Of a stretch of DNA of 64,000 nt, positions 27,501 through 57,019 are shown one piece after another. The translations under genes were made by a program, and so were the position numbers. The stretch covers positions 1 to 64,000 of the IMG/VR virus record IMGVR_UViG_3300033067_000113; one strand, 5' to 3'. The notes beneath the pieces are model-generated. The model was not told the origin of the DNA, ran no database searches, and was given only the letters and a program-made list of their open reading frames with translations. The number at the start of each line of letters is the position of its first letter. The first letter of the stretch is position 1. This stretch comes from a virus. Its lineage: Duplodnaviria; Caudoviricetes.

Positions 27501-30500
27501 TAACAGAACTACCTACAGTATTCAATCCATCTAATTTAACAAAGTCATCTTCGATTAGGAACGGGCTAGGTGGAGATGTACGGATAGCACGGAAGTAATC
27601 TCCGTTGTAGCGAACAATTTCCCCGAACTTAGTTTCAGTTTCAGGTAACCAGTCTTTCCATTTGTCAGATCCAGTACTCCAGTTCTGTGTCGTCCAGAAC
27701 ATAAATTCTTTTGCACTAGTTTCCCAGTTAGCTACTGCGCCTAGGTTAAGGTTAAATTCGTCAAAGACAAATCCTTCGTCCTTTAACCACTCGCCGTAAC
27801 CTAATAAGAAGTCAACAACTTCTTGCACTGTTCTAAACTTAGTGCTGTAGGGAACAGTAATAGCTTCATCTCTGTTCCACTTTGTTCTAAAGTATGCATC
27901 GCGTCCGCCAATGATTGGCAAACTTGGTAGAGTTTGATACTTTGAAATATCAAAAGTAGTTGCAACATGCAATACTTTCACTCGATAGTATCTGTTGTTA
28001 TAGGCTACAATCTTGCCAGCGGCATATTGTTCACCTTGAGTCCACTGGCTGAAACTTTCCGAGATACCGCCAATGTTAACTACTCTACCGTCTTGTGTAT
28101 ATGGGTAATATTTGAAGAACGGCTGAGTCTTGCTGTAGCCTTTAACTTCGAATCCATCTTCTAACTTAGTGATAATAACACCACTGTAAGTAATTTTCTT
28201 AATTGGACTTGAGCTATTAAGGATAATGCTGTAGTCTTCTTGAGGGATGAATACCCCTGCAGATGCAGTAGGGCTCTTGCTATCTAGTAGCAAGTTAAAT
28301 TTTTCTTTGCTAGTAAATCCGCCAACACGGTAACTAATTTGACTTGCTAGATTATCCATGTCGTAGACATAACTGTCAAACGATTTTAAGTTATCGCTAA
28401 CAATGTAATCAGCAATATAGTTAATAATACCTGAAGTCTGTACTCGAGTTTTGCTAGAATAAATGCTAGGGAACACAACATCGCTAGGTGTAATTCTCAA
28501 TCCAGTATCTTTGTAAACTAACTGTCCTGTTAGATCTCTAACAATTCGTGAACGGTCTAATAGTAGGCCAAAGATCTTCGATGGGTTCAATAGCATCATT
28601 GTCAGTATCACAGCAAACGGATAGTGACTGCTTCTGCGCCATGTAGCTTCAATTGGGCTAACATCGCCGAATACAAAATCGCCTGCGGCACTAGGTGTAA
28701 TTACACCAGTTGACATATTTGATAGTAGAGGACTAATTAAGTTTCCAGATTCGTCAACAGGAATACATCCTACTAAGAATGGTCTTTCAAATCCTGCCTT
28801 AATGAATGCCGGCTTGCCTGGTTCTCTTACAATACCTGCAGCCATGTCTTCCCATAGGATCAAGTTGTCTCTAGTATAAGGAGCAGGTCCATACACACTA
28901 GTCCACCATGTTGGTTCTTCAAAGAATCCTAACATTTCCCAAGGGCAAATATTTGGACGGTCAGTATCTAACATCCAGCGATAGATACCTCTCCAGTATC
29001 CCGGAGTTTCTCTACCATCCGGAGCAGCATGTCCGCGGTAGTTGTAAGTCATTGAGTTATTTCTGTCATAGCTCAATGGCTTACTAAAATCTCTATCGAT
29101 TAAACTTGTCCACTTGTAGAACTGTGGAGACAGTACTTCGTTAAACTCTGCTAACGAGTATTGTGTTTCTCTAATATAACCCGGTAAAAAGTCGTAGATA
29201 TTAAAGATGCTAGTATCATACTGTACTTTAATGTTATTGTAAATTCGTTTTTCTAATTCAAGAATTAGATCATCACGGAAGTCACCATACGCTAATACTT
29301 GACTACCATCGTGACATTGGATCATTACACGCGGTGTAATCAAACTAGTGTCAGTATAAATTTTAGGTTCAAACTTTGGCCAGATGCCTAACTTGGTAGG
29401 AGTTGCTGGGATAAAACATCCGTCAGTGTTGTCATATTCGTAAACTGTAATAACATCACCGTTCTGTAGAGTTGCTAAAATTTCAACAAACCCTAGACCG
29501 TCAAATGTATACTCTGTCCCGTACAATAGTTGTGTAGAATTTAGATACACATAGACTGCTTTGTTTGATAACTTTGTTAGATCAAAGTTTTCAGACAACG
29601 GATATTTTTTATTTCTATAGTCAATAACTGTAAAGCTGTTAGCAACTTTAGCAGTATATCCTGCCATGTCACTAAAATAGTAAGGAGCAGTAGTTGGCTT
29701 GTCTTTGTTAATTTCAGCTAATACTAAATTAACATGTTCAACAGTTGCAATATCAACACCTAGTGATTCTGCAATAGTAATAAAACTTCGTTTAAATTTA
29801 TTGTAGTCAGCTTGGCTTTGCTCAACCGCTCTAATAACATTGTTGTTATCAGAGGTAATGTGGTACATTGACAAGCTAGCTGGGCCGCTATGTTGTACAA
29901 ACTTAGTACCAAACTGGGTTACATTTCCTAAGTCTCGTAAATTGTTTACGCCTGGGTAAGACCCTTCAAACGCAACTGTGTTATCTACGATAGAGTTAAC
30001 ATGATCGATAACTTCACCTAAAGTGAATTCGCTGATAGTTTCATTTAAAGGATTATTTTGTAAGTTGATTGGAATCTCATAATAGCCTGTGCTATTAACT
30101 GGCTGTGCAGTGAAGGCACGGATTGTCAATACATCAGTAGTTGCAATGTCAGTAGTCAATACTACTTTTTTGTAATCAGGGCAAGTGGTTAATGTCCATA
30201 GAGACTTATCTAAACGGATTCCGTTGACATATATTCTAACTTCTAAATCTAGTAGATTATTAACATCATCAAAAATGTCAATTTCAAAATTGTTTACTTT
30301 ACCGGAATTTTTATAAATTCTAATTGCGGCCTGTGTATTCTTAGCACTGCTAATTTGCCATCCGTTAACATACGCAACTGCGGCTGACTCTGTAGACTTA
30401 ACTAAGTGTCCAGCGGCAATTTTTTTAGTAACAATTTCTGCAACATCTTTGTACTCAAAGGTATCTGTTGCTAGGGCAAAATTGAATACAATGTCGCCAA

Positions 30501-41128: not shown

Positions 41129-41962
41129 ATGACAGCGAAAGTAAATTACCTAAACAACAAAGATATGTTGTTGGAAATACATAGAAGTAAGAGTACATAT
41201 TGCAGTTTTACCGATCCAAAGTATCATCAATATGACATTATTTTGCCAAGTTTAGACAAAGTAAACATACGCACGATAGCCGAAGCTAAAAGAAATCAGG
41301 CTAAAAGAATAGGTGATTTGGAGTATCAAACTCGCAAAAAAGCAGGCGAAAAAGTCAAACAAGCCGACTGCGAAGTAGACTACAAGAAGATTGCTAAGAC
41401 TGATTTAGTCTTTAGAATCATGACTTTCGATCATATCCCGCTTAATAATACCCGTAAAAAGAATCCTAAAAGCCTAGCTGATCACCGTGATAAAGTAAAC
41501 TTTCCGCCGTTCCAGCATTGGAAATTCAATGATGAAGACGAGCTAGTATGCGTGGGAAAATCGCACTGGAAGGGTGATCTAGAAAAGGGTCACTTTGACA
41601 AAGATGCGGGCCAAATTACTAACACCTTAGCAAGAATGATGATTAAACTGTGTGAGCGTTACGCTACACGGGGTAATGTTCGCGGCTATACCTACAACGA
41701 TGAGATGAAGGGGCAAGCTATTTTACAACTAACACAAATTGGATTACAGTTTGACGAATCTAAAAGCGACAATCCGTTTGCTTATTTTACTGCCGCAGTT
41801 ACTAATAGTTTTGTGCGGGTTATTAATATTGAAAAGCGCAACCAAAATATTCGTGACGACATCTTAGAAATGAACGGTATGAACCCATCATACTCAAGAA
41901 CTGGTGCAGGCGAACATGCCGCGGCACTGAAACGACACAATGAGGACACATCTAGTGAGTAA
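41129..41962 (+). CDS. late-transcription sigma factor, T4 gp55-like
   Basis: YLNNKDMLLEI N-terminus and GYTYNDEM..FDESKSDNPFAYFT..NSFVRVINIEK match the gp55 family, with an extra internal segment. Confidence 0.85.
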   Translation: MTAKVNYLNNKDMLLEIHRSKSTYCSFTDPKYHQYDIILPSLDKVNIRTIAEAKRNQAKRIGDLEYQTRKKAGEKVKQADCEVDYKKIAKTDLVFRIMTFDHIPLNNTRKKNPKSLADHRDKVNFPPFQHWKFNDEDELVCVGKSHWKGDLEKGHFDKDAGQITNTLARMMIKLCERYATRGNVRGYTYNDEMKGQAILQLTQIGLQFDESKSDNPFAYFTAAVTNSFVRVINIEKRNQNIRDDILEMNGMNPSYSRTGAGEHAAALKRHNEDTSSE

Positions 41963-42968
41963 TTTATTTAAAAAAGTTGCCTGTTTTACAGATATCCACT
42001 TTGGATTGAAGTCTAACAGTTCTGTACACAATCAGGACTGTTCTGATTTTGTAGATTGGTACATTGCTAAGGCAAAGGAGGAAGGTTGTGACACTGGAAT
42101 TTTTATGGGTGATTGGCATCACAATCGTAACAGCCTCAATATCACTACTATGGATTATAGTCTTAGAGCCCTTGAGAAACTTGGAAAGGCTTTTGATAAC
42201 TTTTACTTCTTTCCTGGCAATCATGATCTTTATTACAAAGATAAACGCGACATCCACAGCGTTGAATTCGGAAAGTATATTCCTGGTATCACTGTGGTAC
42301 ACGAGCCCGTTACTATTGGCGACGTTACTATGTGTCCTTGGCTTGTCGGAGAAGAATGGAAAACAGTAGGTAAGAAAGGTGGCAAGTATATCTTTGGTCA
42401 CTTTGAATTGCCTAACTTCTTTATGAACGCTATGGTGCAAATGCCGGACCACGGTGAAATCCAATTAGATGCATTCAAAGAATACGAACTAGGATTTAGT
42501 GGACACTTCCATAAGCGCCAAGCTCGTGGTAATATGCACTATATTGGCAATGCGTTTCCGCACAACTATGCAGACGCATGGGATGATGACCGCGGTATGA
42601 TGATTTTAGAATGGGGCAGCAAGCCAGAATATCATAGCTGGCCAGAACAACCAACATTCCGTACTGTTAAGTTAAGCCAACTTATCGACGAAGCGGACAC
42701 ATTGATATTGCCCAAGCAACATCTTCGTGTTACACTAGACATTGATATTAGTTACGAAGAAGCGTCGTTTATCAAAGAAAAGTTCATTAGCGATTATTCT
42801 ATTAGAGAACTTACTTTGATTACTGAGCGTAAAGATGTTGAGATGAATACTAACATTGATGTGCAAGCATTTGAATCTGTAGATCAAATTGTTAGCAGTC
42901 AAATCGTCAACATTGAAAGTGACACATATGACAAGAACACGCTTCTAGCGATTTATAACAGCCTATGA
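41955..42968 (+). CDS. recombination endonuclease subunit, T4 gp47/Mre11/SbcD-like (GTG start at 41955 preferred)
   Basis: Metallophosphoesterase motifs FTDIHFG, GDWHH, GNHD, GHFE, SGHFH. Confidence 0.9.
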   Translation: MSNLFKKVACFTDIHFGLKSNSSVHNQDCSDFVDWYIAKAKEEGCDTGIFMGDWHHNRNSLNITTMDYSLRALEKLGKAFDNFYFFPGNHDLYYKDKRDIHSVEFGKYIPGITVVHEPVTIGDVTMCPWLVGEEWKTVGKKGGKYIFGHFELPNFFMNAMVQMPDHGEIQLDAFKEYELGFSGHFHKRQARGNMHYIGNAFPHNYADAWDDDRGMMILEWGSKPEYHSWPEQPTFRTVKLSQLIDEADTLILPKQHLRVTLDIDISYEEASFIKEKFISDYSIRELTLITERKDVEMNTNIDVQAFESVDQIVSSQIVNIESDTYDKNTLLAIYNSL

Positions 42969-44743
42969 TAAAGATTAAAGAACTAACAGTAAAAAACTTC
43001 ATGAGTGTGGGCAACCAGACTCAAGGAGTTAACTTTGCACAAGAAAACTTAACATTAGTACTAGGCGAAAACTTAGACCAAGGCGGAGACGATAGCGGAT
43101 CACGAAATGGTACAGGTAAAACAACTATTGTAAATGCCTTGAGCTTTGCACTATACGGCAATGCTCTTACTAACATTAAGAAAGACAACCTAATCAACAA
43201 AATCAATAACAAGAATATGTTGGTTACACTATCGTTTGAAAAAGACGGTACTGAATATCGTATCGAGCGTGGACGCAAGCCCACGCTGATGAAGTTCTAT
43301 GTCAATGACGAAGAACAAGGTACAGAAGAAAGCGATGACGCACAAGGTGATATGCGTGAAACCCAGAAGGACTTAGATGAACTGCTGGGTATGTCGCACG
43401 ATATGTTCAAGCATATTGTTGCGCTTAACACCTATACAGAACCGTTCTTATCTATGAAGAGCGGAGAACAGCGTGTAATCATTGAACAGCTACTTGGTAT
43501 TACTTTACTAAGTGAAAAAGCAGAAACACTCAAAGAACTTATCCGTCAAACTAAAGATGCTATTGTACAAGAAAGTGCAGACATCGAAGCGGCTAAGAAG
43601 TCTAACGATAAAATCCAACTAAGTGTTGACAGTTTAATTACTAGACAAAATGCTTGGAATACGCAACACGATAACGATTTAGAAAAGATCGGCCGTGCTA
43701 TTATCGAATTAGAAAATGTAGACATTGATGCAGAGCTTACTGCACACGCTACTTTAAAAACTTATCTAGAGCAGGCAGCTAAACTAAAGAGCCTGAACAA
43801 AGAACGAGCAACCTTAGAGAGCGCGACAGCGCAAGCGGAGCGTAGCGTAAAGAAATACGCTAGCGAGCTTGCTGCCTTAGATGGTAAGAAATGTCACGCT
43901 TGCGAACAAGACTTACATGATCACAAGCACGAAGAAATGTCAGCTAAGGCTACTGAGCACTTAGAAGAAGCACAAAAGTACTTGGATAAAGTTAATGCAG
44001 ACCTAGCTAAGATTGTCAAAGAGATTACTGCTATCGGTGAAGTTAGTGCTCGTCCGGACACTTACTACGATACTGTTGAAGAAGCACTCAAGCATCAAAA
44101 CAACTTGAAGACTTTGGAAACTAACCTAACAATCAAAGCAGGTGAGACAGATCCTTATCAAGAGCAAATTGATGAGTTACGCAATACTGCCATGCAAGAA
44201 ATCAACTGGGATAAAGTTAACGAGCTCAACGCTCTTAAAGATCACCAAGAGTTCTTGCTCAAGTTGCTGACTAGTAAAGATAGCTTTATCCGTAAGAAGA
44301 TTATTGATCAAAACTTAGCATACTTGAATAACCGTTTAACTTACTATCTCGACAAGATGGGCTTGCCGCATACAGTTACATTCCAGAATGACTTGAATGT
44401 AGAAATTATGCAGTTAGGACAGGACTTGGACTTTGATAACTTGTCGCGTGGTGAACGCAATCGTTTGATCTTGTCATTGAGCTGGGCATTCCGTGATGTA
44501 TGGGAAAGTTTGTATCAAAGTATTAACCTGTTGTTCATTGATGAATTGATCGACAACGGTCTAGATGCTAGTGGTGTAGAAGGTGCGTTGGGCGTACTTA
44601 AAAAGATTGCCCGTGAGCGTAAGAAGAATGTATTCTTAATCTCGCACAAAGACGAACTAATCGGTCGTGTTAACAATGTACTGAAAGTTGTTAAGGAGAA
44701 CGGCTTTACATCATACGCAAATGATCTAGAGGTAACTGAATGA
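42965..44743 (+). CDS. recombination ATPase subunit, T4 gp46/Rad50/SbcC-like
   Basis: KNFMSVGN, Walker A RNGTGKTT, zinc-hook CHAC in a coiled coil, signature LSRGE, Walker B LLFIDE, ISH. Confidence 0.92.
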   Translation: MIKIKELTVKNFMSVGNQTQGVNFAQENLTLVLGENLDQGGDDSGSRNGTGKTTIVNALSFALYGNALTNIKKDNLINKINNKNMLVTLSFEKDGTEYRIERGRKPTLMKFYVNDEEQGTEESDDAQGDMRETQKDLDELLGMSHDMFKHIVALNTYTEPFLSMKSGEQRVIIEQLLGITLLSEKAETLKELIRQTKDAIVQESADIEAAKKSNDKIQLSVDSLITRQNAWNTQHDNDLEKIGRAIIELENVDIDAELTAHATLKTYLEQAAKLKSLNKERATLESATAQAERSVKKYASELAALDGKKCHACEQDLHDHKHEEMSAKATEHLEEAQKYLDKVNADLAKIVKEITAIGEVSARPDTYYDTVEEALKHQNNLKTLETNLTIKAGETDPYQEQIDELRNTAMQEINWDKVNELNALKDHQEFLLKLLTSKDSFIRKKIIDQNLAYLNNRLTYYLDKMGLPHTVTFQNDLNVEIMQLGQDLDFDNLSRGERNRLILSLSWAFRDVWESLYQSINLLFIDELIDNGLDASGVEGALGVLKKIARERKKNVFLISHKDELIGRVNNVLKVVKENGFTSYANDLEVTE

Positions 44744-44931
44744 GAGACTTAGCATTAGTAGATGCAGTGGTTGCACTGCACGAAATTGCTAGGCTAGTAG
44801 AAGATACAGTCGGACAGGGTAACTTGTCCGACGATCTCCGTAACTGTGCAAACAGACTACATTTGATCAGCATTGACCAAGGTCGTGCTAGCAATGTAGC
44901 GGACGAAATTATTAAACAGGCTAAAGAGTAA
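44740..44931 (+). CDS. hypothetical protein
   Basis: 63-aa ORF with ATGA overlap upstream and TAATG overlap downstream. Confidence 0.55.
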   Translation: MRDLALVDAVVALHEIARLVEDTVGQGNLSDDLRNCANRLHLISIDQGRASNVADEIIKQAKE

Positions 44932-45182
44932 TGCATCAAGACGAAGAGTTGCACCAGCAACTCATGTTAGCATTTAGGGAATATTTTAAAGCCAACCAGG
45001 AATGGATGGCCAAAGGCACACGACGAGCGGGTATGGATACTCGCGAATGGCTCAATGTAATTAGGCACCTTTGTACTGACCGCCGTAAATCAATTATGGA
45101 ATGGCGCTACGAACTCAACGAACAAACTAGGCTTAAAAAGGCTCAAGATCAACAGGCACCCAAGGATGATCATGCTAACTAA
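44931..45182 (+). CDS. hypothetical protein
   Basis: 83-aa coupled ORF, predicted helical and basic. Confidence 0.6.
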   Translation: MHQDEELHQQLMLAFREYFKANQEWMAKGTRRAGMDTREWLNVIRHLCTDRRKSIMEWRYELNEQTRLKKAQDQQAPKDDHAN

Positions 45183-45185
45183 AGC

Positions 45186-45611
45186 ATGTCATGGACTTAT
45201 CAGAATCAGCTCGTAGAAACATTACCTGAAGATTGTGTTGGGTTTGTGTACATCATCACAAATATTATCTCTGGCAGAAAATACATAGGCAAAAAGCTCG
45301 CCAAATTCTCAAAGACTACAACTAAAACTGTAACCTTAAAGAATGGCACAAAGAAGAAAAAGAAGATTCGTAGCAAGGTCGATTCAGACTGGCGCGAGTA
45401 CTACGGAAGTAGTCCAAATCTTCAAAAAGACATAGACACACTAGGCAAAGAAAACTTCACAAGAGAAATCCTATATTACTGCAACTCTAAGGCGCAATGC
45501 TCTTATATCGAGGCAAGAGAACAATTTTCCCGCAAAGTATTAGAATCAGACGACTATTACAACGGACACATTCAAGTTCGTGTACATGGGTCACACATAT
45601 TAAAATCTTAG
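45186..45611 (+). CDS. stand-alone GIY-YIG endonuclease
   Basis: GFVYIITN..GRKYIGKK, YYGSS, catalytic-region E (YIEARE) and YYN; only 141 aa, no C-terminal DNA-binding repeats. Confidence 0.85.
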   Translation: MSWTYQNQLVETLPEDCVGFVYIITNIISGRKYIGKKLAKFSKTTTKTVTLKNGTKKKKKIRSKVDSDWREYYGSSPNLQKDIDTLGKENFTREILYYCNSKAQCSYIEAREQFSRKVLESDDYYNGHIQVRVHGSHILKS

Positions 45612-46098
45612 GCTAACAATACAGTAAGGGCTCGCACCGGCTAACATCGGGTGCCGAACAGAAGAAATCTGGACATCGTGTCGCAGAGATCCGCAGACTT
45701 GCCGCTGTAAGCAAGCACTTAATCACTATCCTTAACAGGACGACGATCGCTTAACACCTGCGATTTGATTATTTGAAGAGAGTTAAAAATAGGGAAAAAG
45801 AGGGGATAAGAACCCCAGGTTTACTAGTGTGTTAGCGTATGTTAGTAAATTGCCGTTGAATAAAGTCTTTGCTCGTGGTACCGGTCAACCGCCACTGTAA
45901 CGCAATAACGCTAAGTGACAAAAGTGCAACTCAGATAATGTCCATTTTTGTTTTTTCTTTGCCCGGCCTGGGCAAAGTGTGACTGAACAATCTAGATAAT
46001 ATCTTAAACGCTTCGCGTAATTAATCATATAAGAAAAAAGAAAATAGCTTGAGCGATAGCGATAAGCTGATGAACTTTAGTTCATCATTAATGTGTGA
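45612..46098 (+). ncRNA. candidate large structured non-coding RNA or structured cis-element (strand uncertain)
   Basis: Largest ORF-free gap in the window, with about 10 local hairpins plus long-range complementarities (see findings). Confidence 0.45.
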
Positions 46099-46104
46099 TA
46101 AATA
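46099..46104 (+). promoter_or_regulatory. putative late promoter TAAATA
   Basis: 17 nt upstream of the ATG at 46122, followed by an AGGA RBS. Confidence 0.6.
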
Positions 46105-46121
46105 TTGCATAGGATAAGAAC

Positions 46122-47195
46122 ATGAAGATATATGAAATAATCGCGGAAAGTAATCAGGTAGATGAAGGTGTTGCTAGTGCTTTAGGTAAAGGATTAGCAT
46201 GGGCTGGTGGTAAACTGGCTAGTTCTGACATTACTAAAAAAGCAGTTGCGGATCTTGCCGCTGAATATGCTAAACGAGCTATGGCTATTCAACGAGCTGG
46301 AAAAACTGTTCCTCCAGTTAGTGCAAAGTTTATTAAAAATAATGCGCCTAAAGATGCTAAACGATTATTATCTGATCCTAAGTATATTGCAATGATCCAA
46401 AAAGAAGGTGACAAGATTATGCGAAATGCTAACTTGTCTGCTGTAGCTGGTAAAGTTGGCTTGTCAAATCTTGTAAAGGGTTCTAAGTGGGATATTACTA
46501 AAGCAGTTGGCAGTAAGTTGGTAAAACTCTATTCAACTTGGCAAGTTATCGGCATGTTCAGAGACTATAACTCAAATGTTAATGCATGGGATGCAGAACT
46601 ACAGAAACAACTAGCCGCTGGCAAAATTACACAAGAGCAATATCAAGCACAGCTTGATCATATCCGTAAAACTGAAATGGGATTACTGGTTACTAAAGTA
46701 GGAGCTGGTCTACTTGGCAGTGCTATCGTTCGAGGCACAGTTGCACCAGTTGCAGGCTTGCTTAAACTAATTCCACTAACTGCGCCAATTGGATCTATTA
46801 TTTCTGGTCTAGGTGCCGCAGGCAGTGCGTATCTATACACTAAATTAAATTCTAAAGAAGGTAGCGAAGCAGTTGCTAGTGTTATGGTTGGTAATGCGTT
46901 AGGCGATGCTGCCACTTCTGCTATTGGTGGGACAGTAACTAACGCAATAGATTGGCTAACTGGTACTGCTAAAGAAGCCGCTGAAGTAGACAAACAACCA
47001 GCTCAAGGTGGCCAAGGCGCTAGTCAAACCCCAGTTAATGCGCCGGGACAACAACTAGCTAAACCTGCTGCTCAACCAGCGGCCGTTCCTACAGCACCGA
47101 CAATGCCGGGCAATAATATAACTGCTAGAGGAGATTTAGATACTCCGGCAGGCTACACTAGAGATGCCGCAGGTAATTTAATCTACGGAAATTAA
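46122..47195 (+). CDS. hypothetical late protein, Ala/Gly-rich with hydrophobic segment
   Basis: 357 aa; MKIYEII.E..VDE N-terminus, long hydrophobic stretch, Pro/Ala/Gln tail. Confidence 0.7.
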   Translation: MKIYEIIAESNQVDEGVASALGKGLAWAGGKLASSDITKKAVADLAAEYAKRAMAIQRAGKTVPPVSAKFIKNNAPKDAKRLLSDPKYIAMIQKEGDKIMRNANLSAVAGKVGLSNLVKGSKWDITKAVGSKLVKLYSTWQVIGMFRDYNSNVNAWDAELQKQLAAGKITQEQYQAQLDHIRKTEMGLLVTKVGAGLLGSAIVRGTVAPVAGLLKLIPLTAPIGSIISGLGAAGSAYLYTKLNSKEGSEAVASVMVGNALGDAATSAIGGTVTNAIDWLTGTAKEAAEVDKQPAQGGQGASQTPVNAPGQQLAKPAAQPAAVPTAPTMPGNNITARGDLDTPAGYTRDAAGNLIYGN

Positions 47196-47425
47196 AACCA
47201 CGGTAGTTGAGTTTCTTTAGTAGTTTCTAAGTTATCTTCAATTACCGCATACATTGCGTCACGGTCTTCGCTAGAATAAAAATGTAAGAGTTCCTGCATA
47301 GATACACCTCCACGCATAAACCAGCTAATTCTAGCTAGTTCTTTTTTAAAATCCTTAATTTGTTGATCTAGCCCAACTAGATACTCTTCAATTTCTTCGT
47401 TAGATAATTTAGTTAGGCGCTGGCG
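47192..47425 (-). CDS. start-less 77-codon ORF, predicted -1 frameshift extension of the gp26-like gene (gp51/GT-like)
   Basis: Open frame RQRLTKLSNEEIEEYLVGLDQQIKDFKKELARISWFMRGG...TQLPWF* begins right at T_TTT_TTC and fills an apparent gap; its TAA overlaps the TAA of the opposing gene. Confidence 0.7.
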   Translation of the reverse strand, partial: RQRLTKLSNEEIEEYLVGLDQQIKDFKKELARISWFMRGGVSMQELLHFYSSEDRDAMYAVIEDNLETTKETQLPWF

Positions 47426-48240
47426 AAAAAACTTGAGTTGTCCATCTCAATAGTGATACTAGATTGATGCCCGCACTCAGGACATTCAACTGGGTGTGTT
47501 GGACTTTCCCATTCGGCTCTTACCTTGGCTAAGTGTTCTTTGATAGCATCAAAGATAACCTTATCGCAGTTTTCCAACCACTCGTTAATATAAGTTCTTT
47601 CAGATACTACAGTATTACCTACTTCTACACTTTCAATACTTGTGGATAGTGCTTCGTTTTGAACTAGGGCAATGTCTTTGAATAAAGCATTCATAAGTTC
47701 TGCTCGTTCTTTGTCGTCTTCAATCTTGTCCGCTTGTCTAATGCGTTGTTGAAGCTGTGCGTTTTTAATTGAGAACTCAGTAATTTGTTTATAGGTTAAT
47801 GGTTGTAGTTTAACTACTAGATCTTTTAAAACAATCTTGTTGTCATACTTACAATTGGTATAGTGATCGATTAGTTTAGATAATTCTAATGTGTAGTCGT
47901 TAACTGTTTTGCAACCTGGGCACACATGTTCCACTTCCATAAGGTTACCAAATGTAGCAATACGGATAGCAGTGAGAATTAAGTCAACATCTAAGTTGCT
48001 AACATCCCATCCGTTTTTAATCACAGGGCAACAGCTTTCAATAACCTTAACTGTAGTCTCACCTGAGTACAACGCATCAGGTGTTTTGATCAGTATTTCA
48101 TCCATGCCGGTCATTCCGTACACAGGCATGTTCTCCACAGGCCCTTGTAGTGTACCTGGCTGGTTAAATGCACCTTTTGACGGTAAACTAATGTAGATCT
48201 TAGGTTGTCTAAAGAACTGTTGTAATGGGTTTTGTGACAT
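47413..48240 (-). CDS. baseplate hub / tail assembly chaperone, T4 gp26/gp51-like
   Basis: RQPKIYISLPS..MPVYGMTGMDE..DVDLILTAIRIATFG; two CxxC motifs (CPGC, CPEC); ends SSFFASA. Confidence 0.7.
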   Translation of the reverse strand: MSQNPLQQFFRQPKIYISLPSKGAFNQPGTLQGPVENMPVYGMTGMDEILIKTPDALYSGETTVKVIESCCPVIKNGWDVSNLDVDLILTAIRIATFGNLMEVEHVCPGCKTVNDYTLELSKLIDHYTNCKYDNKIVLKDLVVKLQPLTYKQITEFSIKNAQLQQRIRQADKIEDDKERAELMNALFKDIALVQNEALSTSIESVEVGNTVVSERTYINEWLENCDKVIFDAIKEHLAKVRAEWESPTHPVECPECGHQSSITIEMDNSSFFASA

Positions 48241-50090: not shown

Positions 50091-51821
50091 ATGAGTTGGA
50101 AAAAGTATTTTACCCCAGTACCTGTGAATAATTCACCAAGTCTACTGCCCGGCGCAAACACGGGAGCAAGACCAGGTCCTGCCCAGACAAACTATTCAAG
50201 TTACCTACCTGACATTTATACAGGTAGCCCAAACAGAATTGACAGATATCAGCAGTATGAAGTTATGGACAGCGATCCAGAAGTTAATGCAGCCTTGGAT
50301 ATTTTAGCAGAGTTCTGCACACAAAAAGAAAAGAGTGGCAAAAGTCCATTTACAGTACAATGGCGCAGTAAGGCAACTAACAGCGAAATTCGTATTCTAG
50401 GCGAATACTTGCAACAATGGTCACGCTTGCAAAAGTTTGACACACGCATCTTCCGCATCATGCGAAATGTATTCAAGTACGGTGATGCTTTCTTTATTCG
50501 TGATCCAGAAACACAAAAGTGGTCTTATGTAGACCCAAGTAAAGTAGTTAAGATTATTGTTAACGAAAGTGACGGCAAGAAGCCAGAGCAATTTATCGTT
50601 AAAGATCTAGCACCTAACTTTGAAAACTTAGTTGCTACACAAATTACAGCCAACATTAATCCTAGAAACAACGGTGGTGGAACAATTCCAACTAGCGGCG
50701 CATTAGGTGCTAGCGGGGTACAGAAGACAGGTGGTAGTGGTTTCTCTAACACATCAACTGGTTCACGCTTTGGTATGAGTGAACAAGAACATGCAATCAA
50801 TGCAGAGCATGTTGTACACTTATCACTATCAGAAGGGTTAGATAACAACTTCCCATTTGGTAACAGCTTGTTAGAAAACATTTTTAAAGTATACAAGCAA
50901 AAAGAATTGCTAGAAGATGCGATTCTAATTTATCGTATACAGCGAGCTCCTGAACGCAGAGTATTCCATATTGACGTCGGTAACATGCCAAGCCACATGG
51001 CTATGGCATTCGTTGAAAGAGTTAAAAACGAAATTCATCAACGCCGTATTCCAAGCCAAACTGGCGGCGGACAGAACGTCATTGACTCAGCATACAATCC
51101 TTTGTCAATTAACGAAGACTACTTCTTCCCAACAACAGCAGAAGGTCGTGGGTCTAAAGTTGAAACATTGCCAGGTGGTACTAACCTAGGCGAAATTGAT
51201 GACTTGAAATACTTTACAAACAAGCTATTCCGTGGCTTGCGTATTCCATCAAGCTACTTGCCAACTGGCGCAGATGACTCACAAGCATCGTTTAACGACG
51301 GTCGTGTAGGTACTGCGTACATCCAAGAATTACGATTTAACAAGTATTGCGAGCGTTTACAAAGTCTTATCACATCAGTATTTGACGAAGAATTTAAGAT
51401 GTTTATGTACTCAAAAGGCGTAAACATTGATGCAAACTTATTTGAATTGAAGTTTAATCCTCCTTTAAACTTTGCAAGTGCAAGACAAAGTGGCTTAGAC
51501 AGCGAGCGTATTAATACATTTAATACTATTCAAGCTGTCCCATATATGTCTAAACGATTTGCATTGAAGCGTTTCCTAGGCTTGTCAGACGATGAAGTTG
51601 CAGAAAACGAACGCATGTGGGGTGAAGAACAAGGTGAAGGCCAACCTACTAATACAGATGCCGCCGGTGAATTGAGATCTGCAGGACTAAGCGCCGCAGG
51701 TATTGAAGGCGACTTAGGTATGGCAGGTGACTTGTCTGCACCAGAAGATATGGGCGATGAAGAAGGTGTTGCACCAGTTGCTCCATCAGGTGGCGCACCA
51801 GCCGCTCCTCCAGCAGCCTAA
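50091..51821 (+). CDS. portal protein, T4 gp20-like
   Basis: MDSDPEVNAALD, LLEDAILIYRIQRAPERRVFHIDVGNMP, EDYFFP..EGRGSKVETLPGG.NLGEIDDLKYF. Confidence 0.93.
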   Translation: MSWKKYFTPVPVNNSPSLLPGANTGARPGPAQTNYSSYLPDIYTGSPNRIDRYQQYEVMDSDPEVNAALDILAEFCTQKEKSGKSPFTVQWRSKATNSEIRILGEYLQQWSRLQKFDTRIFRIMRNVFKYGDAFFIRDPETQKWSYVDPSKVVKIIVNESDGKKPEQFIVKDLAPNFENLVATQITANINPRNNGGGTIPTSGALGASGVQKTGGSGFSNTSTGSRFGMSEQEHAINAEHVVHLSLSEGLDNNFPFGNSLLENIFKVYKQKELLEDAILIYRIQRAPERRVFHIDVGNMPSHMAMAFVERVKNEIHQRRIPSQTGGGQNVIDSAYNPLSINEDYFFPTTAEGRGSKVETLPGGTNLGEIDDLKYFTNKLFRGLRIPSSYLPTGADDSQASFNDGRVGTAYIQELRFNKYCERLQSLITSVFDEEFKMFMYSKGVNIDANLFELKFNPPLNFASARQSGLDSERINTFNTIQAVPYMSKRFALKRFLGLSDDEVAENERMWGEEQGEGQPTNTDAAGELRSAGLSAAGIEGDLGMAGDLSAPEDMGDEEGVAPVAPSGGAPAAPPAA

Positions 51822-51823
51822 GC

Positions 51824-51829
51824 TAAATA
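51824..51829 (+). promoter_or_regulatory. putative late promoter TAAATA
   Basis: Directly after the portal stop, only 4 nt before the next ATG. Confidence 0.5.
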
Positions 51830-51833
51830 CATC

Positions 51834-52073
51834 ATGATCCTAAGAGAATTGTTTTATATAGACCCAGATACAAGAGCGCAGGCTAACGACATGCGCTATT
51901 CTGCTGGCCATGATTCGTCTATAATGAAAAGATCAGATACAAGAAAGACTAGATTAACACTAGGACAAATTAATGAATTAAGAAAAGCAAGTGAAGCACA
52001 CATATTAGATCAAGAAAGTGAATTAGCTTTTATTACTAAGATGTATGCAACCCCAGCGGCACCTGCGGCATAA
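51834..52073 (+). CDS. small hypothetical head-region protein
   Basis: 79 aa between portal and prohead core genes; TRKTRLTLGQIN.LRK. Confidence 0.65.
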   Translation: MILRELFYIDPDTRAQANDMRYSAGHDSSIMKRSDTRKTRLTLGQINELRKASEAHILDQESELAFITKMYATPAAPAA

Positions 52074-52139
52074 ATATTCCATTAAATCACAAAACGAGGC
52101 GTTTTTGTGGTATTATCATACACTTTTTAAACTCTAGTG

Positions 52140-52145
52140 TAAATA
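52140..52145 (+). promoter_or_regulatory. putative late promoter TAAATA (second copy at 52071-52076)
   Basis: Upstream of the AGGAG RBS and the ATG at 52181. Confidence 0.55.
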
Positions 52146-52180
52146 TTACACAGCCTTGTAATCAATCATAGGAGAAAAAC

Positions 52181-53014
52181 ATGACTGACCGTACACAATT
52201 TGAAGCCATGCTTGAGGCATTGATCAATGAAGATCAAGAAACAGCAAAAGAGATTTTCCATAATATCGTAGTTGCAAAAAGCCGCGAAATTTATGAAGAG
52301 TTATTAGAATCTGATTTTAGTATTTCTGAAGAGGAAGAAGAAGAAGATATGGAAGAAGCCTTTGGTGAAGAAGAAGGCGGAGAAGAAGAAGCACCTGCTG
52401 ATGACGAAGGTTCAGAAGAAGGCGAAGGCGGCGAAGATGAATTCGGCGGCGACGACATGGGTGGCGAAGAAGAAGGTGAAGACCTAAGTGATGACGAGCA
52501 GACAGATCGTATTTTAGATCTAGAAGACGCATTAGAAGAACTAAAAGCAGAATTTGAACAATTAATGGCTGGTGAAGAATCTGAGCCAGAACACGCAGAT
52601 ATGTTTGGTGGCGACGAAATGGGCGCTGGCGACATGGGTGGCGATCTAGAGTCTGAATTAGACGAACTAGGCCAACCAGTATTTGAATATGTAAACAAAG
52701 TATCATTACCTAAGCATGGTGACAACGGTGTAAACGCTAAGTCAATCGTAGCTAAGAAGAACGACATGGGCGGTACAACTGCTAATATCGTTAAAGGTGG
52801 TACAAGTGAAACAGGTGGCACAAAAGGTGGTTTACTAAACCCAGCTACTAAAGAAGACAACGCAGGCAACATCAACAAGCCAGGCGCAAATGCAGGTAAG
52901 ACAGCTTTTAAGAAGCGTGAACCAGGTCATGGCGCTGAGAAGAAAGGTGCTGCACCACAAGAAGACAAGAGCGCAGGTAGCCCATTAAACGGCGCACCAG
53001 GCCGCGCTAAGTAA
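52181..53014 (+). CDS. acidic prohead core/scaffold-like protein
   Basis: Very Glu/Asp/Gly-rich centre and Lys/Gly-rich C-terminus; lies between portal and protease, as T4 prohead core genes do. Confidence 0.6.
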   Translation: MTDRTQFEAMLEALINEDQETAKEIFHNIVVAKSREIYEELLESDFSISEEEEEEDMEEAFGEEEGGEEEAPADDEGSEEGEGGEDEFGGDDMGGEEEGEDLSDDEQTDRILDLEDALEELKAEFEQLMAGEESEPEHADMFGGDEMGAGDMGGDLESELDELGQPVFEYVNKVSLPKHGDNGVNAKSIVAKKNDMGGTTANIVKGGTSETGGTKGGLLNPATKEDNAGNINKPGANAGKTAFKKREPGHGAEKKGAAPQEDKSAGSPLNGAPGRAK

Positions 53015-54788: not shown

Positions 54789-55952
54789 ATGTCAGAACTA
54801 CTAAATGGCCGTTGGGCAGAGACTAAAGAGGCCCTATTAGAAGGCCTACAAGGAACAAAGAAATCAGTAATGGGCGTGACTCTAGAAAATACTAAAAAGT
54901 ATTTGCAAGAATCTGCTACTGCTGGTGCAACTTCTGCCGGCAACGTCGCAACTTTAAACCGCGTGATTCTACCAGTAATCCGTCGTGTAATGCCAACCGT
55001 TATTGCTAACGAATTGGTAGGTGTACAACCAATGACTGGCCCAGTTGGTCAAATCCATACATTGAGAGTTCGTTATTCAGACAGCTCAAACAATGCTGGT
55101 GTTACTGCTGGTGAAGAGGCATTAAGCCCATTCAAGATTGCTGAAGGCTATTCAGCTGACTCAACTGGTAAGGCTGTTTCTACAGCATCTCTAGAAGGTC
55201 AAGCTGGTAAGCGTATGAGCATTCAAATCTTGAAGCAAACCGTTGAAGCTAAGACTCGTAAGTTAAGCGCTCGCTGGACTTTCGAAGCTGCTCAAGACGC
55301 ACAAGCCCAACAAGGTATCGACGTCGAAGCAGAAATCATGGCTGCATTGGCTCAAGAAATCACTGCTGAAATCGACCAAGAGATCCTAGCATCTCTAAGC
55401 TCACTAGCTGGTTCAGCCGCAGAGACATACAACCAAGCTGCCGTTTCAGGTACTGCTACATTCGTTGGTGACGAACACGCTGCTCTAGCTGTTCAGATCA
55501 ACCGTGTTGCTAACTTGATCGCTCAGCGTACACGCCGTGGTGCTGGTAACTGGGCCGTTGTTAGCCCAACAGCATTGACAATCCTTCAATCTGCTACTAC
55601 AAGCGCATTTGCTCGTACAACAGAAGGTACATTCGAAGCTCCAACAAACACTAAGTTCGTTGGTACATTGAACAACGCAATGAAGGTTTATGTAAACAGC
55701 TATGCTACATCTGACGATGTATTAGTTGGTTACAAAGGTTCATCAGAATCAGATGCAGCGGCATTCTATTGCCCTTACATCCCATTGATGAGCTCTGGTG
55801 TTGTACTAGATCCATCAACTTTCGAACCAGTCGTTTCATTCATGACTCGTTATGGTTATGTTGAGTTGTCAAACACTGCGTCATCTCTAGGTAACGCAGC
55901 TGACTACTTAGGTAAAGTTGGTATCACTACAGCTAACGTCAAGTTCAGCTAA
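54789..55952 (+). CDS. major capsid protein, T4 gp23-like
   Basis: LPVIRRVMPTVIANELVGVQPMTGPVGQI, VEAKTRKLSARWTFEAAQD, EIDQEI, AFYCPYIPL, DPSTFEPVVSFMTRYG. Confidence 0.95.
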   Translation: MSELLNGRWAETKEALLEGLQGTKKSVMGVTLENTKKYLQESATAGATSAGNVATLNRVILPVIRRVMPTVIANELVGVQPMTGPVGQIHTLRVRYSDSSNNAGVTAGEEALSPFKIAEGYSADSTGKAVSTASLEGQAGKRMSIQILKQTVEAKTRKLSARWTFEAAQDAQAQQGIDVEAEIMAALAQEITAEIDQEILASLSSLAGSAAETYNQAAVSGTATFVGDEHAALAVQINRVANLIAQRTRRGAGNWAVVSPTALTILQSATTSAFARTTEGTFEAPTNTKFVGTLNNAMKVYVNSYATSDDVLVGYKGSSESDAAAFYCPYIPLMSSGVVLDPSTFEPVVSFMTRYGYVELSNTASSLGNAADYLGKVGITTANVKFS

Positions 55953-56014: not shown

Positions 56015-56107
56015 TAAATACTATGTATGACTTACACAGGGTAAGTTTTATGCGGAAATCCAACCGCGTATGGCCTAGAACGCCATCTTTCTTTAGGAGA
56101 AAATAAA
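56015..56107 (+). promoter_or_regulatory. late promoter TAAATA (56015-56020) plus three-hairpin structured 5' leader
   Basis: ACTTAC/GTAAGT, TATGCGG/CCGCGTA and TGGC/GCCA stems ahead of the AGGAG RBS. Confidence 0.55.
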
Positions 56108-57019
56108 ATGGGACGTCCTTTAAATAAAAAATATTTTGGTAACCGCAATGCCGGTACCGCAGTTGCAGGTGATGATGGACTTGGTGGTAATCAAGTAGCT
56201 AGTGTTACACTAGGTACATTAGGTTCATTCACAACACGCCCAACAGTAACATTCAGTGACCCAGATAAAGCAGCTCTTGGTGGTGTAACAGCCACCGGTA
56301 CTGTAACATCTGAAGTTCTTAGCGCAGCCGTTACAGTTGCTGGAACTAACTATGTAGTTGGAGATTTGCTAACAGTTACTACCGCAGGCGGATCAGCTAT
56401 TGCGTATGTTGCGTCAGTTGATACAGGCGGTGAAGTTTTAACAGTTAACTTTACAGGTACTGGTGCTAGCCGTGGTAGCTTTGAAGCATTGCCAAGCGGT
56501 GCCCAAGCAACTACAGACAACAGCGTAGCAGGTGCTGGAGCAACATTGACTCTTACATTCCGTGCTAAGGCAGTTGTTATTACTAACGCAGGTTCTGGTT
56601 ATACAGATGCAACAGATGCAGCCGCATCATTTACTCAATCAGTAACTGGTACAACAGTATTAGGTACTTCAGCAGTTGTTGGTCAAAACGAAAATGCTAT
56701 TTCTATGGTAGCATACTTGACTGGTGGCTCAGCTGGCGCAGTTGACATCATTCGTCAAGTTAGTACAAATCGTTACAAAGTAACAGACGGTACTCGTACA
56801 GGTATTGTAGCATTAACATCTACAGAAGCTGACGCAGCCGGCGAAGGTAGTATCCTTGCTACTGACAGCGATGCTGGTACTTACTATGTTACTAAATTAA
56901 CTGCTCACAAAGCAACTGTAACTCGTGGCACAGGCACACAATTTGCTACAGGCCAAGCAGTACAGTGGACATTTGATGCCGCTACTGAAGGCGCAACTGT
57001 AAAGATTGCTAACGCTTAA
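56108..57019 (+). CDS. putative virion (head decoration-type) structural protein
   Basis: 303 aa, Thr/Ala/Gly/Val-rich and beta-type; own late promoter and downstream hairpin; right after the capsid gene. Confidence 0.6.
   Translation: MGRPLNKKYFGNRNAGTAVAGDDGLGGNQVASVTLGTLGSFTTRPTVTFSDPDKAALGGVTATGTVTSEVLSAAVTVAGTNYVVGDLLTVTTAGGSAIAYVASVDTGGEVLTVNFTGTGASRGSFEALPSGAQATTDNSVAGAGATLTLTFRAKAVVITNAGSGYTDATDAAASFTQSVTGTTVLGTSAVVGQNENAISMVAYLTGGSAGAVDIIRQVSTNRYKVTDGTRTGIVALTSTEADAAGEGSILATDSDAGTYYVTKLTAHKATVTRGTGTQFATGQAVQWTFDAATEGATVKIANA

What the first reader, a model, noticed from the sequence alone, without database searches (positions are those of the whole stretch)
45612..46098. Candidate ~490-nt multi-domain structured ncRNA behind the GIY-YIG gene
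Seen in sequence: this is the only long ORF-free stretch in a densely coding 64 kb. Local stems: GCACC/GGTGC (45634-45654), TCTGGACA/TGTCGCAGA, CTTGC/GCAAG, TCCT/AGGA, ATCGC/GCGAT, GGGG/CCCC, TTTACTAG/TTAGTAAA (45820-45849), GTGG/CCAC, CTTTGCCC/GGGCAAAG (45957-45977), AGCTT/AAGCT and TGATGAAC/GTTCATCA (46068-46087). Long-range pairings: GCACTT-aa-TCACT (45715-45727) with AGTGA-caa-AAGTGC (45914-45927); TGGACAT (45670-45676) with ATGTCCA (45938-45944); and a loop-loop match of GCTAACA (45640-45646) with TGTTAGC (45830-45836). There is also a near-direct repeat, GCCRCTGTAA(C)GCAA, at 45701 and 45891. Inference: nested long helices plus a kissing/pseudoknot pairing suggest a folded RNA rather than just terminators. 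I do not recognise it as a known family.
Basis: partly seen in the sequence, partly recalled or inferred. Interest (0 to 1): 0.78.

Follow-up and report, generated by a model that had tools for sequence, protein, structure and literature searches.

The report
Full-length Polynucleobacter-1 twin-box phage RNA
The gene-free gap behind a small nuclease gene of this uncultured giant T4-like lake phage encodes a real, knotted non-coding RNA of about 460 bases; only its first third was catalogued (the orphan Rfam motif Polynucleobacter-1), the rest shows one 7-letter word twice, and its function is still unknown.

Summary
The 510-nt gap (45612-46121) is the largest ORF-free stretch in the window. 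It holds one + strand RNA of about 460 nt (45629-46087).

- **Known part:** 45629-45774 is a full-length match to Rfam RF01718, Polynucleobacter-1 (84.7 bits, cut-off 37).
- **Uncatalogued part:** the remaining ~310 nt have no Rfam match but are the best conserved.
- **Structure:** on 135 homologues, a 15-helix, two-pseudoknot structure is 88.9% paired (35-45% when slid). 73 of 90 pairs change on both sides.
all eleven local stems hold. The three long-range or kissing pairings do not (61.8% paired, equal to shuffles). The loop UUAGCGU pairs with ACGCUAA at 45908-45914 instead.
- **Twin boxes:** two loops 61 nt apart carry the same word, AGAUAAU. The copies stay identical across homologues through at least 16 independent switches. 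I found no partner.
- **Context:** the RNA follows a 141-aa GIY-YIG gene in 133 of 134 phage loci. It also sits, without that nuclease, in tRNA-Phe-integrated islands of Polynucleobacter chromosomes. Cultured-phage homologues of the nuclease lack the RNA.

I read it as an autonomous trans-acting RNA, not the nuclease's guide. This scan has already found the same family on other DNA many times.

The parts
45186..45611 (+). 141-aa catalytic-domain-only GIY-YIG (SegE-type) gene, directly upstream on the same strand
   Evidence: Pfam PF19835 at 3.4e-33. It lies upstream of the RNA in 133 of 134 loci found through the RNA itself. Median amino-acid identity is 82%, against 68% for gp46 and 47% for the hub. 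Third-codon identity is about 0.52.
45629..45774 (+). 5' domain, Rfam RF01718 Polynucleobacter-1. Helices: P1 45634-38/45650-54; P2 45669-75/45679-86; P3 45698-702/45711-15; P4 45720-25/45766-71; P5 45726/42 and 45730-31/38-39; P6 45745-50/45760-65
   Evidence: cmscan 84.7 bits, cut-off 37, model positions 1-141 of 141. Helices 1-12. P3 is the weakest, which is an alignment register problem.
45775..46087 (+). Uncatalogued 3' two-thirds of the same RNA; the best conserved part
   Evidence: No Rfam match up to E = 10 other than three snoRNA hits (two of them here, E 5.9 and 6.4) that I take as noise. 70-80% identity over query positions about 7-500 in dozens of loci. Long runs of invariant columns.
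45803..45816 (+). P7 hairpin (GGG/CCC)
   Evidence: Helix 13: 85.6% paired, 2 of 3 pairs change on both sides.
45821..45848 (+). P8 hairpin 45821-28/45841-48 with conserved loop UGUUAGCGUAU
   Evidence: Helices 14-15: 8 of 8 pairs change on both sides.
45832..45914 (+). Pseudoknot 1: loop UUAGCGU (45832-38) pairs with ACGCUAA (45908-14)
   Evidence: Helix 16: 95.4% paired, 7 of 7 pairs change on both sides (for example UUAACGU/ACGUUAA and AUAGUGU/ACACUAU).
45855..45905 (+). Pseudoknot 2: GUUGA 45855-59 / UCAAC 45885-89 crosses P10 (45869-72/45902-05) and P11 (45875-79/45891-95)
   Evidence: Helices 17-19: 92-98% paired. The pair 45869-45905 is the top MI pair in the alignment.
45930..45941 (+). 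Twin box A: CUC-AGAUAAU-GU, single-stranded
   Evidence: Identical to box B in 40 of 40 unbiased homologues and in 102 of 103. At least 16 independent A/G switches on the tree.
45957..45977 (+). P12 hairpin CUUUGCCC/GGGCAAAG between the boxes, preceded by a U-rich tract
   Evidence: Helices 20-21: 80-88% paired, 4 of 8 pairs change on both sides.
45991..46002 (+). Twin box B: UCU-AGAUAAU-AU, single-stranded, 61 nt after box A
46008..46018 (+). P13 small hairpin ACGC-UUC-GCGU
   Evidence: Helix 22: 92.1% paired, 4 of 4 pairs change on both sides.
46046..46068 (+). P14 hairpin AGCUU/AAGCU with inner GAGC-GNNA-GCGA motif
   Evidence: Helices 23-25. The inner pairs are 98% paired; the outer stem scores lower because of alignment register.
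46069..46086 (+). P15 terminal hairpin GAUGAAC-UUUA-GUUCAUC; likely the 3' end of the RNA
   Evidence: Helix 26: 98.6% paired, 7 of 7 pairs change on both sides. It is followed only by a short U/A run, and the scan calls no + strand terminator.
46105..46112 (+). GATAAATA: T4-type late-promoter-like box for the downstream gene (ATG at 46122), lying after the RNA
   Evidence: The same NATAAATA-type box lies 23-47 nt upstream of nine presumed late (mostly structural-region) genes in the window. It is conserved at this place in homologues (columns about 680-700).

Best explanation
The gap encodes one non-coding RNA of about 460 nt on the + strand (45629-46087). It is the full-length form of the RNA family of which Rfam's Polynucleobacter-1 model covers only the first 141 positions.

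**Shown:**
- It folds into about 15 helices with two pseudoknots.
- Its core displays the same 7-nt word (AGAUAAU) in two unpaired segments 61 nt apart.
- The two words are held identical while the word itself changes often.

**Inferred:**
- In the phage, the RNA is made as the 3' part of the early or middle transcript that carries the GIY-YIG gene. I see no promoter in between, and the next gene has its own late-type promoter after the RNA.
- It acts in trans as an autonomous RNA. The two identical words engage two copies, or two identical sites, of one outside partner. I think the partner is more likely a nucleic acid than a protein, so the RNA would work as a bivalent adaptor.
- It is not the dedicated guide or subunit of the neighbouring nuclease.
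For: **It is an RNA of this family.**
- RF01718 matches at 84.7 bits (cut-off 37) over the whole model.
- The whole gap, not just 141 nt, is 70-80% identical in dozens of contigs.
- On 135 sequences the structure is 88.9% paired, against 35-45% when slid. 73 of 90 pairs change on both sides, the covariation score is 0.408 against 0.05-0.08, and 0 of 500 shuffles reach it.
- Frequent G-U and U-G pairs fix the + strand.

**Twin boxes.**
- They are identical in 40 of 40 homologues chosen only by the nuclease gene.
- They are identical in 102 of 103 homologues, with at least 16 independent switches on the tree.
- Seven different words were seen, each always the same in both boxes.
- The seventh letter, which was not part of the search pattern, is also identical in 135 of 135.

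**Autonomy.**
- 17 of 151 Polynucleobacter genomes carry RF01718.
- All 12 loci examined hold the full-length RNA with twin boxes and no GIY-YIG gene within 10 kb.
- Five such genomes have no SegE-type GIY-YIG gene anywhere.
- Homologues of the nuclease occur in 496 cultured-phage records. The six I looked at have no gap and no RF01718 behind the gene.

**Transcript context.**
- A late-type promoter box sits after the RNA.
- One 523-nt metatranscriptome contig runs from inside the nuclease gene to box B. This is a weak hint only.
Against: - No transcript ends, strand or abundance are measured. The RNA-library data are contigs of relatives and could include DNA.
- The single-sequence fold is not better than shuffles (z = -0.59).
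- The trans-acting bivalent-adaptor step is inference. No partner was found in the RNA, in the nuclease gene, or elsewhere in two complete phage genomes.
- The very tight linkage to the nuclease gene in phages (133 of 134), together with the unusual conservation of both, could still mean that they work together.
- A nucleic-acid partner with U opposite the switching A/G would tolerate mixed boxes. Yet mixed boxes are almost never seen (1 of 103).
Confidence: 0.45

Rival explanations
1. The RNA is the specificity or scaffold subunit of the neighbouring minimal GIY-YIG nuclease. On this view the twin boxes address the enzyme to DNA, as the HEARO/omega RNA does for IscB.
For: - Same strand, a gap of about 20 nt, and 133 of 134 loci.
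- The nuclease has only a catalytic domain.
- Both the RNA and the nuclease are far better conserved than gp46 or the baseplate hub, under old purifying selection.
- The words look like addresses.
- The island copies could use a helper phage's nuclease in trans (my inference).
Against: - The RNA occurs without any SegE-type GIY-YIG in Polynucleobacter genomes.
- Equally minimal homologues of the nuclease in 496 cultured-phage records work without the RNA.
- Only 2-3 letters of a 7-nt word vary, which is too little to address a genome.
- No nuclease column tracks the word.
- An ORF of about 1 kb can sit between the gene and the RNA.
Confidence: 0.12
2. The RNA is a replication-related element, for example an origin primer or R-loop RNA. 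It would be used by the T4-type replisome and copied by satellite-like islands that exploit such phages.
For: - There is one copy per complete 345-347 kb genome, at a fixed place after gp46 and just before what appear to be late genes (late-type promoter box, baseplate hub, portal).
- The Polynucleobacter islands that carry it are about 10.6-kb tRNA-Phe-integrated elements with an integrase and a clamp-loader-like ATPase.
- In the islands a late-promoter-like TAAATA box precedes the RNA.
- An earlier agent of this scan proposed this reading (e1-5835852).
Against: - Nothing links the site to initiation. No AT-rich unwinding element is conserved; the A-rich stretch 46020-46045 is variable.
- The ornate invariant core and the twin boxes are not explained.
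- As far as I know, the T4 origin transcripts that have been described are not ornate structured RNAs.
Confidence: 0.15
3. The RNA is a protein sponge or regulator. On this view the two identical words are the two binding sites of a homodimeric RNA-binding protein (CsrA-like geometry) of host or phage.
For: - Two identical single-stranded sites lie 48-61 nt apart in these phage homologues, each in a similar local frame.
- From my own knowledge, dual-site binding by a homodimer is known for CsrA/RsmE. G-state words read GGAUGA, which is close to the CsrA SELEX core.
Against: - The commonest word, AGAUAA, lacks GGA.
- A protein reader would have to change specificity at least 16 times among close relatives.
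- The island words (AGCGAAA, AUCAAAA) are unrelated to the phage words.
Confidence: 0.13
4. The element is purely cis-acting: a 3' UTR or terminator that stabilises the GIY-YIG mRNA, or a leader for the downstream gene.
For: - The RNA lies between two + strand genes.
- A terminal hairpin ends it.
- One contig bridges the gene and the RNA.
Against: - The downstream gene varies, can be on the other strand, and has its own promoter after the RNA.
- The RNA occurs without the nuclease gene in bacteria.
- 460 nt with two pseudoknots and invariant loops is far more than mRNA stabilisation needs.
Confidence: 0.05
5. It is a DNA-level element (origin, packaging site or recombination site) and not an RNA.
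For: - GCGAAAGC-type mini-hairpins lie near the 3' end.
- There are direct repeats.
Against: - Long-range compensatory pairs, including two pseudoknots, are conserved.
- G-U pairs work on one strand only.
- The region matches an Rfam covariance model.
Confidence: 0.03

Closest known systems
Polynucleobacter-1 RNA motif (Rfam RF01718; Weinberg et al. 2010, Genome Biol 11:R31, PMC2864571)
   Same: - The first 146 nt match the whole model at 84.7 bits.
- The habitat is the same (fresh water, Polynucleobacter).
- The position is the same, downstream of a GOS11034-type gene, which I take to be this GIY-YIG family.
- The function is unknown.
   Different: - The model covers 141 positions, whereas the conserved, covarying RNA is about 460 nt.
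- The uncatalogued part holds both pseudoknots, the most invariant stretches and the twin boxes.
- The 2010 authors found no example in a purified phage and noted that the '3' half is not always detected'. Here the carrier is clearly a T4-like giant phage.
- Some clades keep the 3' domain but replace the 5' domain.
HEARO / omega RNA of IscB-IsrB (HEARO motif in the same 2010 paper; its later assignment as a guide is from my own knowledge)
   Same: A large structured RNA sits next to a small nuclease gene and was first seen as an orphan motif.
   Different: - There is no Rfam match.
- There is no long variable guide at an end.
- The RNA and the nuclease each occur without the other.
GOLLD and ROOL, large non-coding RNAs often carried by phages and prophages (my own knowledge)
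   Same: - The RNA is several hundred nt long and ornate, with pseudoknots.
- It is phage-borne.
- The function is unknown.
   Different: - There is no sequence or model match.
- It is smaller.
- The twin identical words are, to my knowledge, not described for those RNAs.
ColE1 RNA II and T4 origin transcripts, primer RNAs of replication (my own knowledge)
   Same: - It is a long RNA.
- There is one copy per replicon.
- Mobile elements carry it.
   Different: No evidence for an origin here, and no model for the twin boxes.

Membership tests
Rfam RF01718 Polynucleobacter-1 | Covariance-model score at or above the curated gathering score (37 bits) | tested here: met
   84.7 bits, E = 1.5e-16, + strand, 45629-45774.
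Rfam RF01718 Polynucleobacter-1 | Match to the whole model with its helices kept | tested here: met
   Model positions 1-141 of 141. Helices P1, P2, P4, P5 and P6 are 79-99% paired with changes on both sides. P3 is weak in my alignment.
Rfam RF01718 Polynucleobacter-1 | Context reported by the authors: downstream of a GOS11034-type gene | tested here: inconclusive
   The RNA lies directly behind a conserved 141-aa gene in 133 of 134 loci. That this gene is GOS11034 is my inference; I could not look that family up.
Guide or scaffold RNA of the adjacent nuclease (HEARO/omega-RNA-like) | RNA and nuclease always co-occur | tested here: not met
   12 of 12 bacterial loci have the RNA without the nuclease, and 5 genomes have none at all. 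Six cultured phages have the nuclease homologue without the RNA.
Guide or scaffold RNA of the adjacent nuclease (HEARO/omega-RNA-like) | A variable guide segment that matches a target | tested here: inconclusive
   Only a 7-nt word with 2-3 variable letters is available. No matching site was enriched in two complete genomes.
Group I intron carrying a GIY-YIG homing endonuclease | Intron core detectable, and the element interrupts a gene | tested here: not met
   There is no Intron_gpI match up to E = 10. The flanking ORFs are separate genes, and the downstream one has its own promoter, RBS and ATG and varies between loci.
CRISPR mini-array or RNA anti-CRISPR (solitary repeats) | Repeats of 25 nt or more that are identical, flanking a variable spacer | tested here: not met
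   Identity is limited to 7-9 nt. The 'spacer' is a conserved, covarying hairpin.
Intrinsic terminators only | GC-rich hairpins each followed by a U run on the transcribed strand | tested here: not met
   The scan finds no + strand terminator in 44700-47400. The helices include long-range pairs and pseudoknots.

The most novel reading that the evidence does not exclude
The RNA is a programmable adaptor in a conflict between giant T4-like phages and satellite-like islands of their hosts. On this reading the twin 7-nt words are an exchangeable address that directs a DNA- or RNA-acting enzyme to two identical sites. The enzyme could be the phage's minimal GIY-YIG nuclease, supplied in cis in phages and in trans to islands. 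That would explain why the words switch fast and always together.
Probability: 0.07. Interest if true: 0.9.

Novelty: new variant of a known kind. Interest (0 to 1): 0.6.

Why it matters
**What changes.** Polynucleobacter-1 has been an orphan motif since 2010. The only paper in the searched library that names it is the one that described it. The catalogued 141 nt turn out to be less than a third of a 460-nt, doubly knotted RNA.

**How widespread it is.** The RNA is a conserved single-copy feature of a large group of uncultured giant T4-like phages. The adjacent GIY-YIG gene has at least 586 relatives among IMG/VR contigs, and the RNA's own 3'-domain pattern has at least 120 matches.

**Why it becomes testable.** The RNA also sits in integrated islands of Polynucleobacter, a bacterial genus whose closed chromosomes carry it. 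From my own knowledge, strains of this genus are in culture.

**The open question.** Two short words are kept identical through at least 16 switches with no partner in cis. I know of no described RNA with this constraint.

**Limit.** For this scan the family is no longer new. Earlier windows gave the same reading.

Tried and rejected
Rejected: they are no better than shuffles.
- **Small protein in the gap.** Two short ORFs lie here: 45869-45982 (+, 37 aa) and 45885-46028 (-, 47 aa). The region instead shows compensatory helices and indels that are not multiples of three.
- **Mini-ORFs from GUG to the box.** They are in frame in the window but not in the homologues.
- **Box read as 'sense codon + stop' or as AUR.** This holds in 69 of 69 phage loci but fails in the bacterial copies.
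- **Box read as a palindrome for dimerisation.** AUCUAGAU is palindromic, but the variants GAAU and GCAU are not (my reading).
- **Partner inside the nuclease mRNA.** The window has AUAUUAUCU at 45262-70, but it is not conserved.
- **MI scan of the nuclease gene and the RNA against the box state.** The best non-box column scores 0.31, against 0.74 for the other box.
- **tRNA matching.** Two complete genomes with different words both carry tRNA-Arg(UCU) and tRNA-Gly(UCC), so the test is uninformative.
- **Word or its complement elsewhere in those genomes.** Not enriched.
- **Island att sites.** They are 43-49 nt of tRNA-Phe and do not contain the word.
- **Shared protein neighbour.** There is no DUF6641 in the five phage records searched and no tyrosine recombinase in the two complete phage genomes. 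There is no SegE-type GIY-YIG in the island genomes.
- **Recent horizontal spread of a homing cassette.** Rejected: third-codon identity is about 0.52 and synteny is fixed.
- **Cultured phages.** blastn of 45186-47195 found nothing.
- **Metatranscriptomes.** Only contigs were available. Parts without cover, and depth, say nothing about expression level.
- **Sigma-70 promoter and terminator scan.** Nothing on the + strand.
- **Single-sequence folding.** z = -0.59.

Full report
**Setting.**
- The window is part of a 73-kb IMG/VR contig, estimated about 20% complete, so the phage genome is about 350 kb.
- It is a T4-like phage. Its genes include the late sigma factor gp55 (41129-41962), the SbcD/SbcC-like gp47 and gp46 (41940-44743), a T4-type baseplate hub (47413-48240, minus strand), a gp20-type portal (50091-51821) and a major head protein (54789-55952).
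- The finding lies between a 141-aa SegE-type GIY-YIG gene (45186-45611; Pfam PF19835, 3.4e-33) and a 357-aa gene of unknown family (46122-47195).
- At 510 nt, this is the largest gap between ORFs of 80 aa or more in the window.

**What is known in it.**
- A scan against all of Rfam gives a full-length match to RF01718, Polynucleobacter-1, at 45629-45774 on the + strand (84.7 bits, gathering score 37). Nothing else appears in 45400-46300 up to E = 10 apart from snoRNA hits that I take as noise.
- The motif comes from Weinberg et al. 2010 (PMC2864571). Their supplement says that it is found mostly downstream of genes of one uncharacterised family, that its 3' half is not always detected, and that no example was seen in a purified phage.
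- That paper is the only one in the searched library that names the motif.

**The element is three times longer than the model.**
- The nuclease protein has at least 586 relatives in IMG/VR (73-91% identity among the best 80). 35 of 50 of those records have RF01718 just behind the gene.
- blastn of the whole gap against those loci shows 70-80% identity over nearly its full length, not only over the first 146 nt.
- Most loci have a 440-520-nt ORF-free stretch at this place.
- Per-position conservation is highest at 45790-46015, which lies outside the Rfam model.
- A pattern taken from the 3' part alone found at least 120 further contigs. In 133 of 134 of those with enough upstream sequence, the nuclease gene lies directly upstream on the same strand. 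The one exception has an unrelated 116-aa ORF there.

**Structure.**
- Mutual information on 40 sequences puts canonical, compensatory pairs at the top of the ranking. A helix search on 103 sequences gives the same helices.
- I wrote out a structure of 15 helices. It includes two pseudoknots:
  - Loop 45832-38 pairs with 45908-14.
  - 45855-59/45885-89 crosses 45869-72/45902-05 and 45875-79/45891-95.
- I counted this structure on 135 sequences (alignment A2). The result was 88.9% of cells paired, against 35-45% with the 3' partner slid. 73 of 90 pairs change on both sides, the covariation score is 0.408 against 0.05-0.08, and no shuffle out of 500 reaches any measure.
- Common G-U and U-G pairs fix the strand as +.
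- Folding the single sequence is not informative (z = -0.59).

- All eleven local stems correspond to supported helices.
- The two nested long helices and the loop-loop pair GCUAACA/UGUUAGC are not conserved: 61.8% paired against a shuffle mean of 62.3% (per-pair counts).
- The near-direct repeat is not conserved in its first copy.

**Twin boxes.**
- Two unpaired segments, CUC-AGAUAAU (45930-39) and UCU-AGAUAAU (45991-46000), vary in parallel rather than in a complementary way.
- In the 40 homologues chosen only through the nuclease gene, the three variable positions are identical in both boxes in every sequence (AA 29 / GG 11; GG 38 / AA 1 / CC 1; AA 38 / GG 2).
- In 103 sequences the first letter is the same in 102. 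On a tree built without the box columns, it changes at least 16 times in each box.
- Among the 80 nuclease loci, a pattern that leaves the word free finds 69 twin pairs: AGAUAA 36, GGAUAA 12, GGAUGA 9, AGAUGA 6, ACAUGA 4, GAAUAA 1 and GCAUAA 1. Four further loci show repeated words with another prefix.
- No column in the RNA or in the nuclease gene is complementary to, or tracks, the boxes.
- I tested and dropped several readings: codon plus stop, start codon, mini-ORF, palindrome, a site in the nuclease mRNA, a cognate tRNA, and a multi-copy target in the genome. The tried-and-rejected section gives details.

**Relation to the nuclease.**
- Synteny is fixed: gp46, a small ORF, the nuclease, the RNA, a variable ORF, then the hub.
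- The nuclease keeps 74-91% identity even where gp46 falls to about 50% and the hub to about 30%.
- Third-codon positions at identical residues are only about 52% identical. This is old divergence under strong purifying selection, not a recently spread homing cassette.
- Even so, the two parts are separable. An ORF of about 1 kb lies between them in several loci.
- Homologues of the nuclease (36-52% identity, often misnamed 'NAD synthetase', 'T4-like GC 213') occur in 496 cultured-phage records. In the six I opened they have neither a gap nor RF01718 behind them.

**Bacterial copies.**
- 17 of 151 Polynucleobacter genomes have RF01718 above the cut-off, mostly on closed chromosomes.
- In all 12 loci examined the RNA is full length, with the same architecture and with twin boxes. 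The words there are AUCAAAA, AGCGAAA, AGAGAAA and AACAAAA, and a few pairs differ by one or two letters.
- There is no GIY-YIG gene within 10 kb, and none in five whole genomes.
- The conserved neighbours are:
  - a divergently transcribed DUF6641 gene;
  - a 188-aa catalytic-domain-only tyrosine recombinase, 0.35-1.3 kb downstream on the same strand;
  - a clamp-loader-like ATPase;
  - a 424-aa integrase.
- In at least two loci the element is about 10.6 kb and is flanked by 43-49-nt direct repeats of a tRNA-Phe gene.
- A fully conserved TAAATA box precedes the RNA. It resembles the late-promoter-like boxes of this phage. This suggests, but does not show, that the island RNA is switched on by an infecting T4-like phage.
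- DUF6641 was not found in five phage records (two of them complete), and tyrosine recombinases were not found in the two complete genomes. The RNA therefore has no protein neighbour common to both settings.

**Expression.** Metatranscriptome assemblies from four freshwater studies contain contigs of this phage or close relatives over the nuclease gene and the RNA. One is a 523-nt contig from 45458 to 45994. These are contigs, so they give no ends, strand or level, and DNA carry-over cannot be excluded.

**Reading.**
- It is a real RNA of the Polynucleobacter-1 family, and about 460 nt long: about 0.95.
- It acts in trans and autonomously, using two identical words to engage two copies of one outside partner: about 0.35-0.45. 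This is inferred from its occurrence without the nuclease, the in-step words, and the absence of a cis partner.
- Rivals: nuclease partner 0.12, replication-related 0.15, dimeric-protein sponge 0.13, cis element 0.05, DNA element 0.03.

**Earlier findings of this scan.**
- The look-up shows that other windows gave the same family and the same main reading: extended Polynucleobacter-1, twin boxes, reader unknown.
- I had seen the twin boxes before the look-up.
- The lead to nuclease-free Polynucleobacter islands came from Weinberg's text and from note e1-5835852, and I checked it myself.

**Novelty.** This is a new variant, in fact the full-length form, of a known orphan family. It is not new to this scan.

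Noticed in passing
window 56030-56110 (+): Rfam RF02980, freshwater-2 RNA (71.4 bits, cut-off 49.9). It lies in the 156-nt gap right after the major head protein gene (54789-55952) and ends at the start of the next gene (56108).
   Followed up: partly
window 18517-32313 (-): A single ORF of 4598 aa, followed by ORFs of 1166 aa and 1276 aa on the same strand. These are giant proteins, possibly virion proteins, and were not examined.
   Followed up: no
window, nine sites, for example 46105-46112 and upstream of 48301, 52181, 7568(-), 9077(-), 13563(-), 35806(-), 41048(-), 48240(-): NATAAATA / CTAAATA boxes lie 23-47 nt upstream of start codons of presumed late genes. This is a T4-type late-promoter-like motif of this phage.
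   Followed up: partly
L223-L234 (Polynucleobacter chromosomes), for example L227 8530-19100: Elements of about 10.6 kb are integrated in tRNA-Phe with 43-49-nt direct repeats. They carry the RNA, DUF6641, a 188-aa catalytic-domain-only tyrosine recombinase, a 424-aa integrase and a clamp-loader-like ATPase. They also carry several copies of a 16-20-nt perfect palindrome (for example TGTCCTTTTAAAGGACA). They look like phage satellites.
   Followed up: partly
L008, L017, L023, L039, L048, L051, L054, L065, L067, L082; and L004, L007, L056, L072 (alignment A2): Two phage clades keep the 3' domain, with pseudoknot 2 and the twin boxes, but have a different 5' domain in place of Polynucleobacter-1. 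This explains why RF01718 missed 15 of 50 records, including a complete 347-kb genome.
   Followed up: partly
L049 3426-4451, L008 3440-4453, L026 3436-4152, L075 524-1528, L077 3420-4559: In some phages an ORF of 238-379 aa of unknown family lies between the nuclease gene and the RNA. The only hint is a weak tetraspanin-like hit that suggests a membrane protein.
   Followed up: partly
L192 1035-1881: This is the one phage-like locus of 134 where the RNA follows an unrelated 116-aa ORF instead of the GIY-YIG gene.
   Followed up: partly
cultured phage records, for example NC_015280.1 157848-158333 and NC_028945.1 165973-166389: The GIY-YIG family of this gene is widely annotated as 'NAD synthetase' (also the name of PHROG 447). 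This looks like a propagated misnomer for a SegE-type nuclease domain.
   Followed up: no
window 51821-52181: The second-largest ORF-free gap (360 nt), after the portal gene. It has no Rfam match at gathering scores and was not examined further.
   Followed up: no
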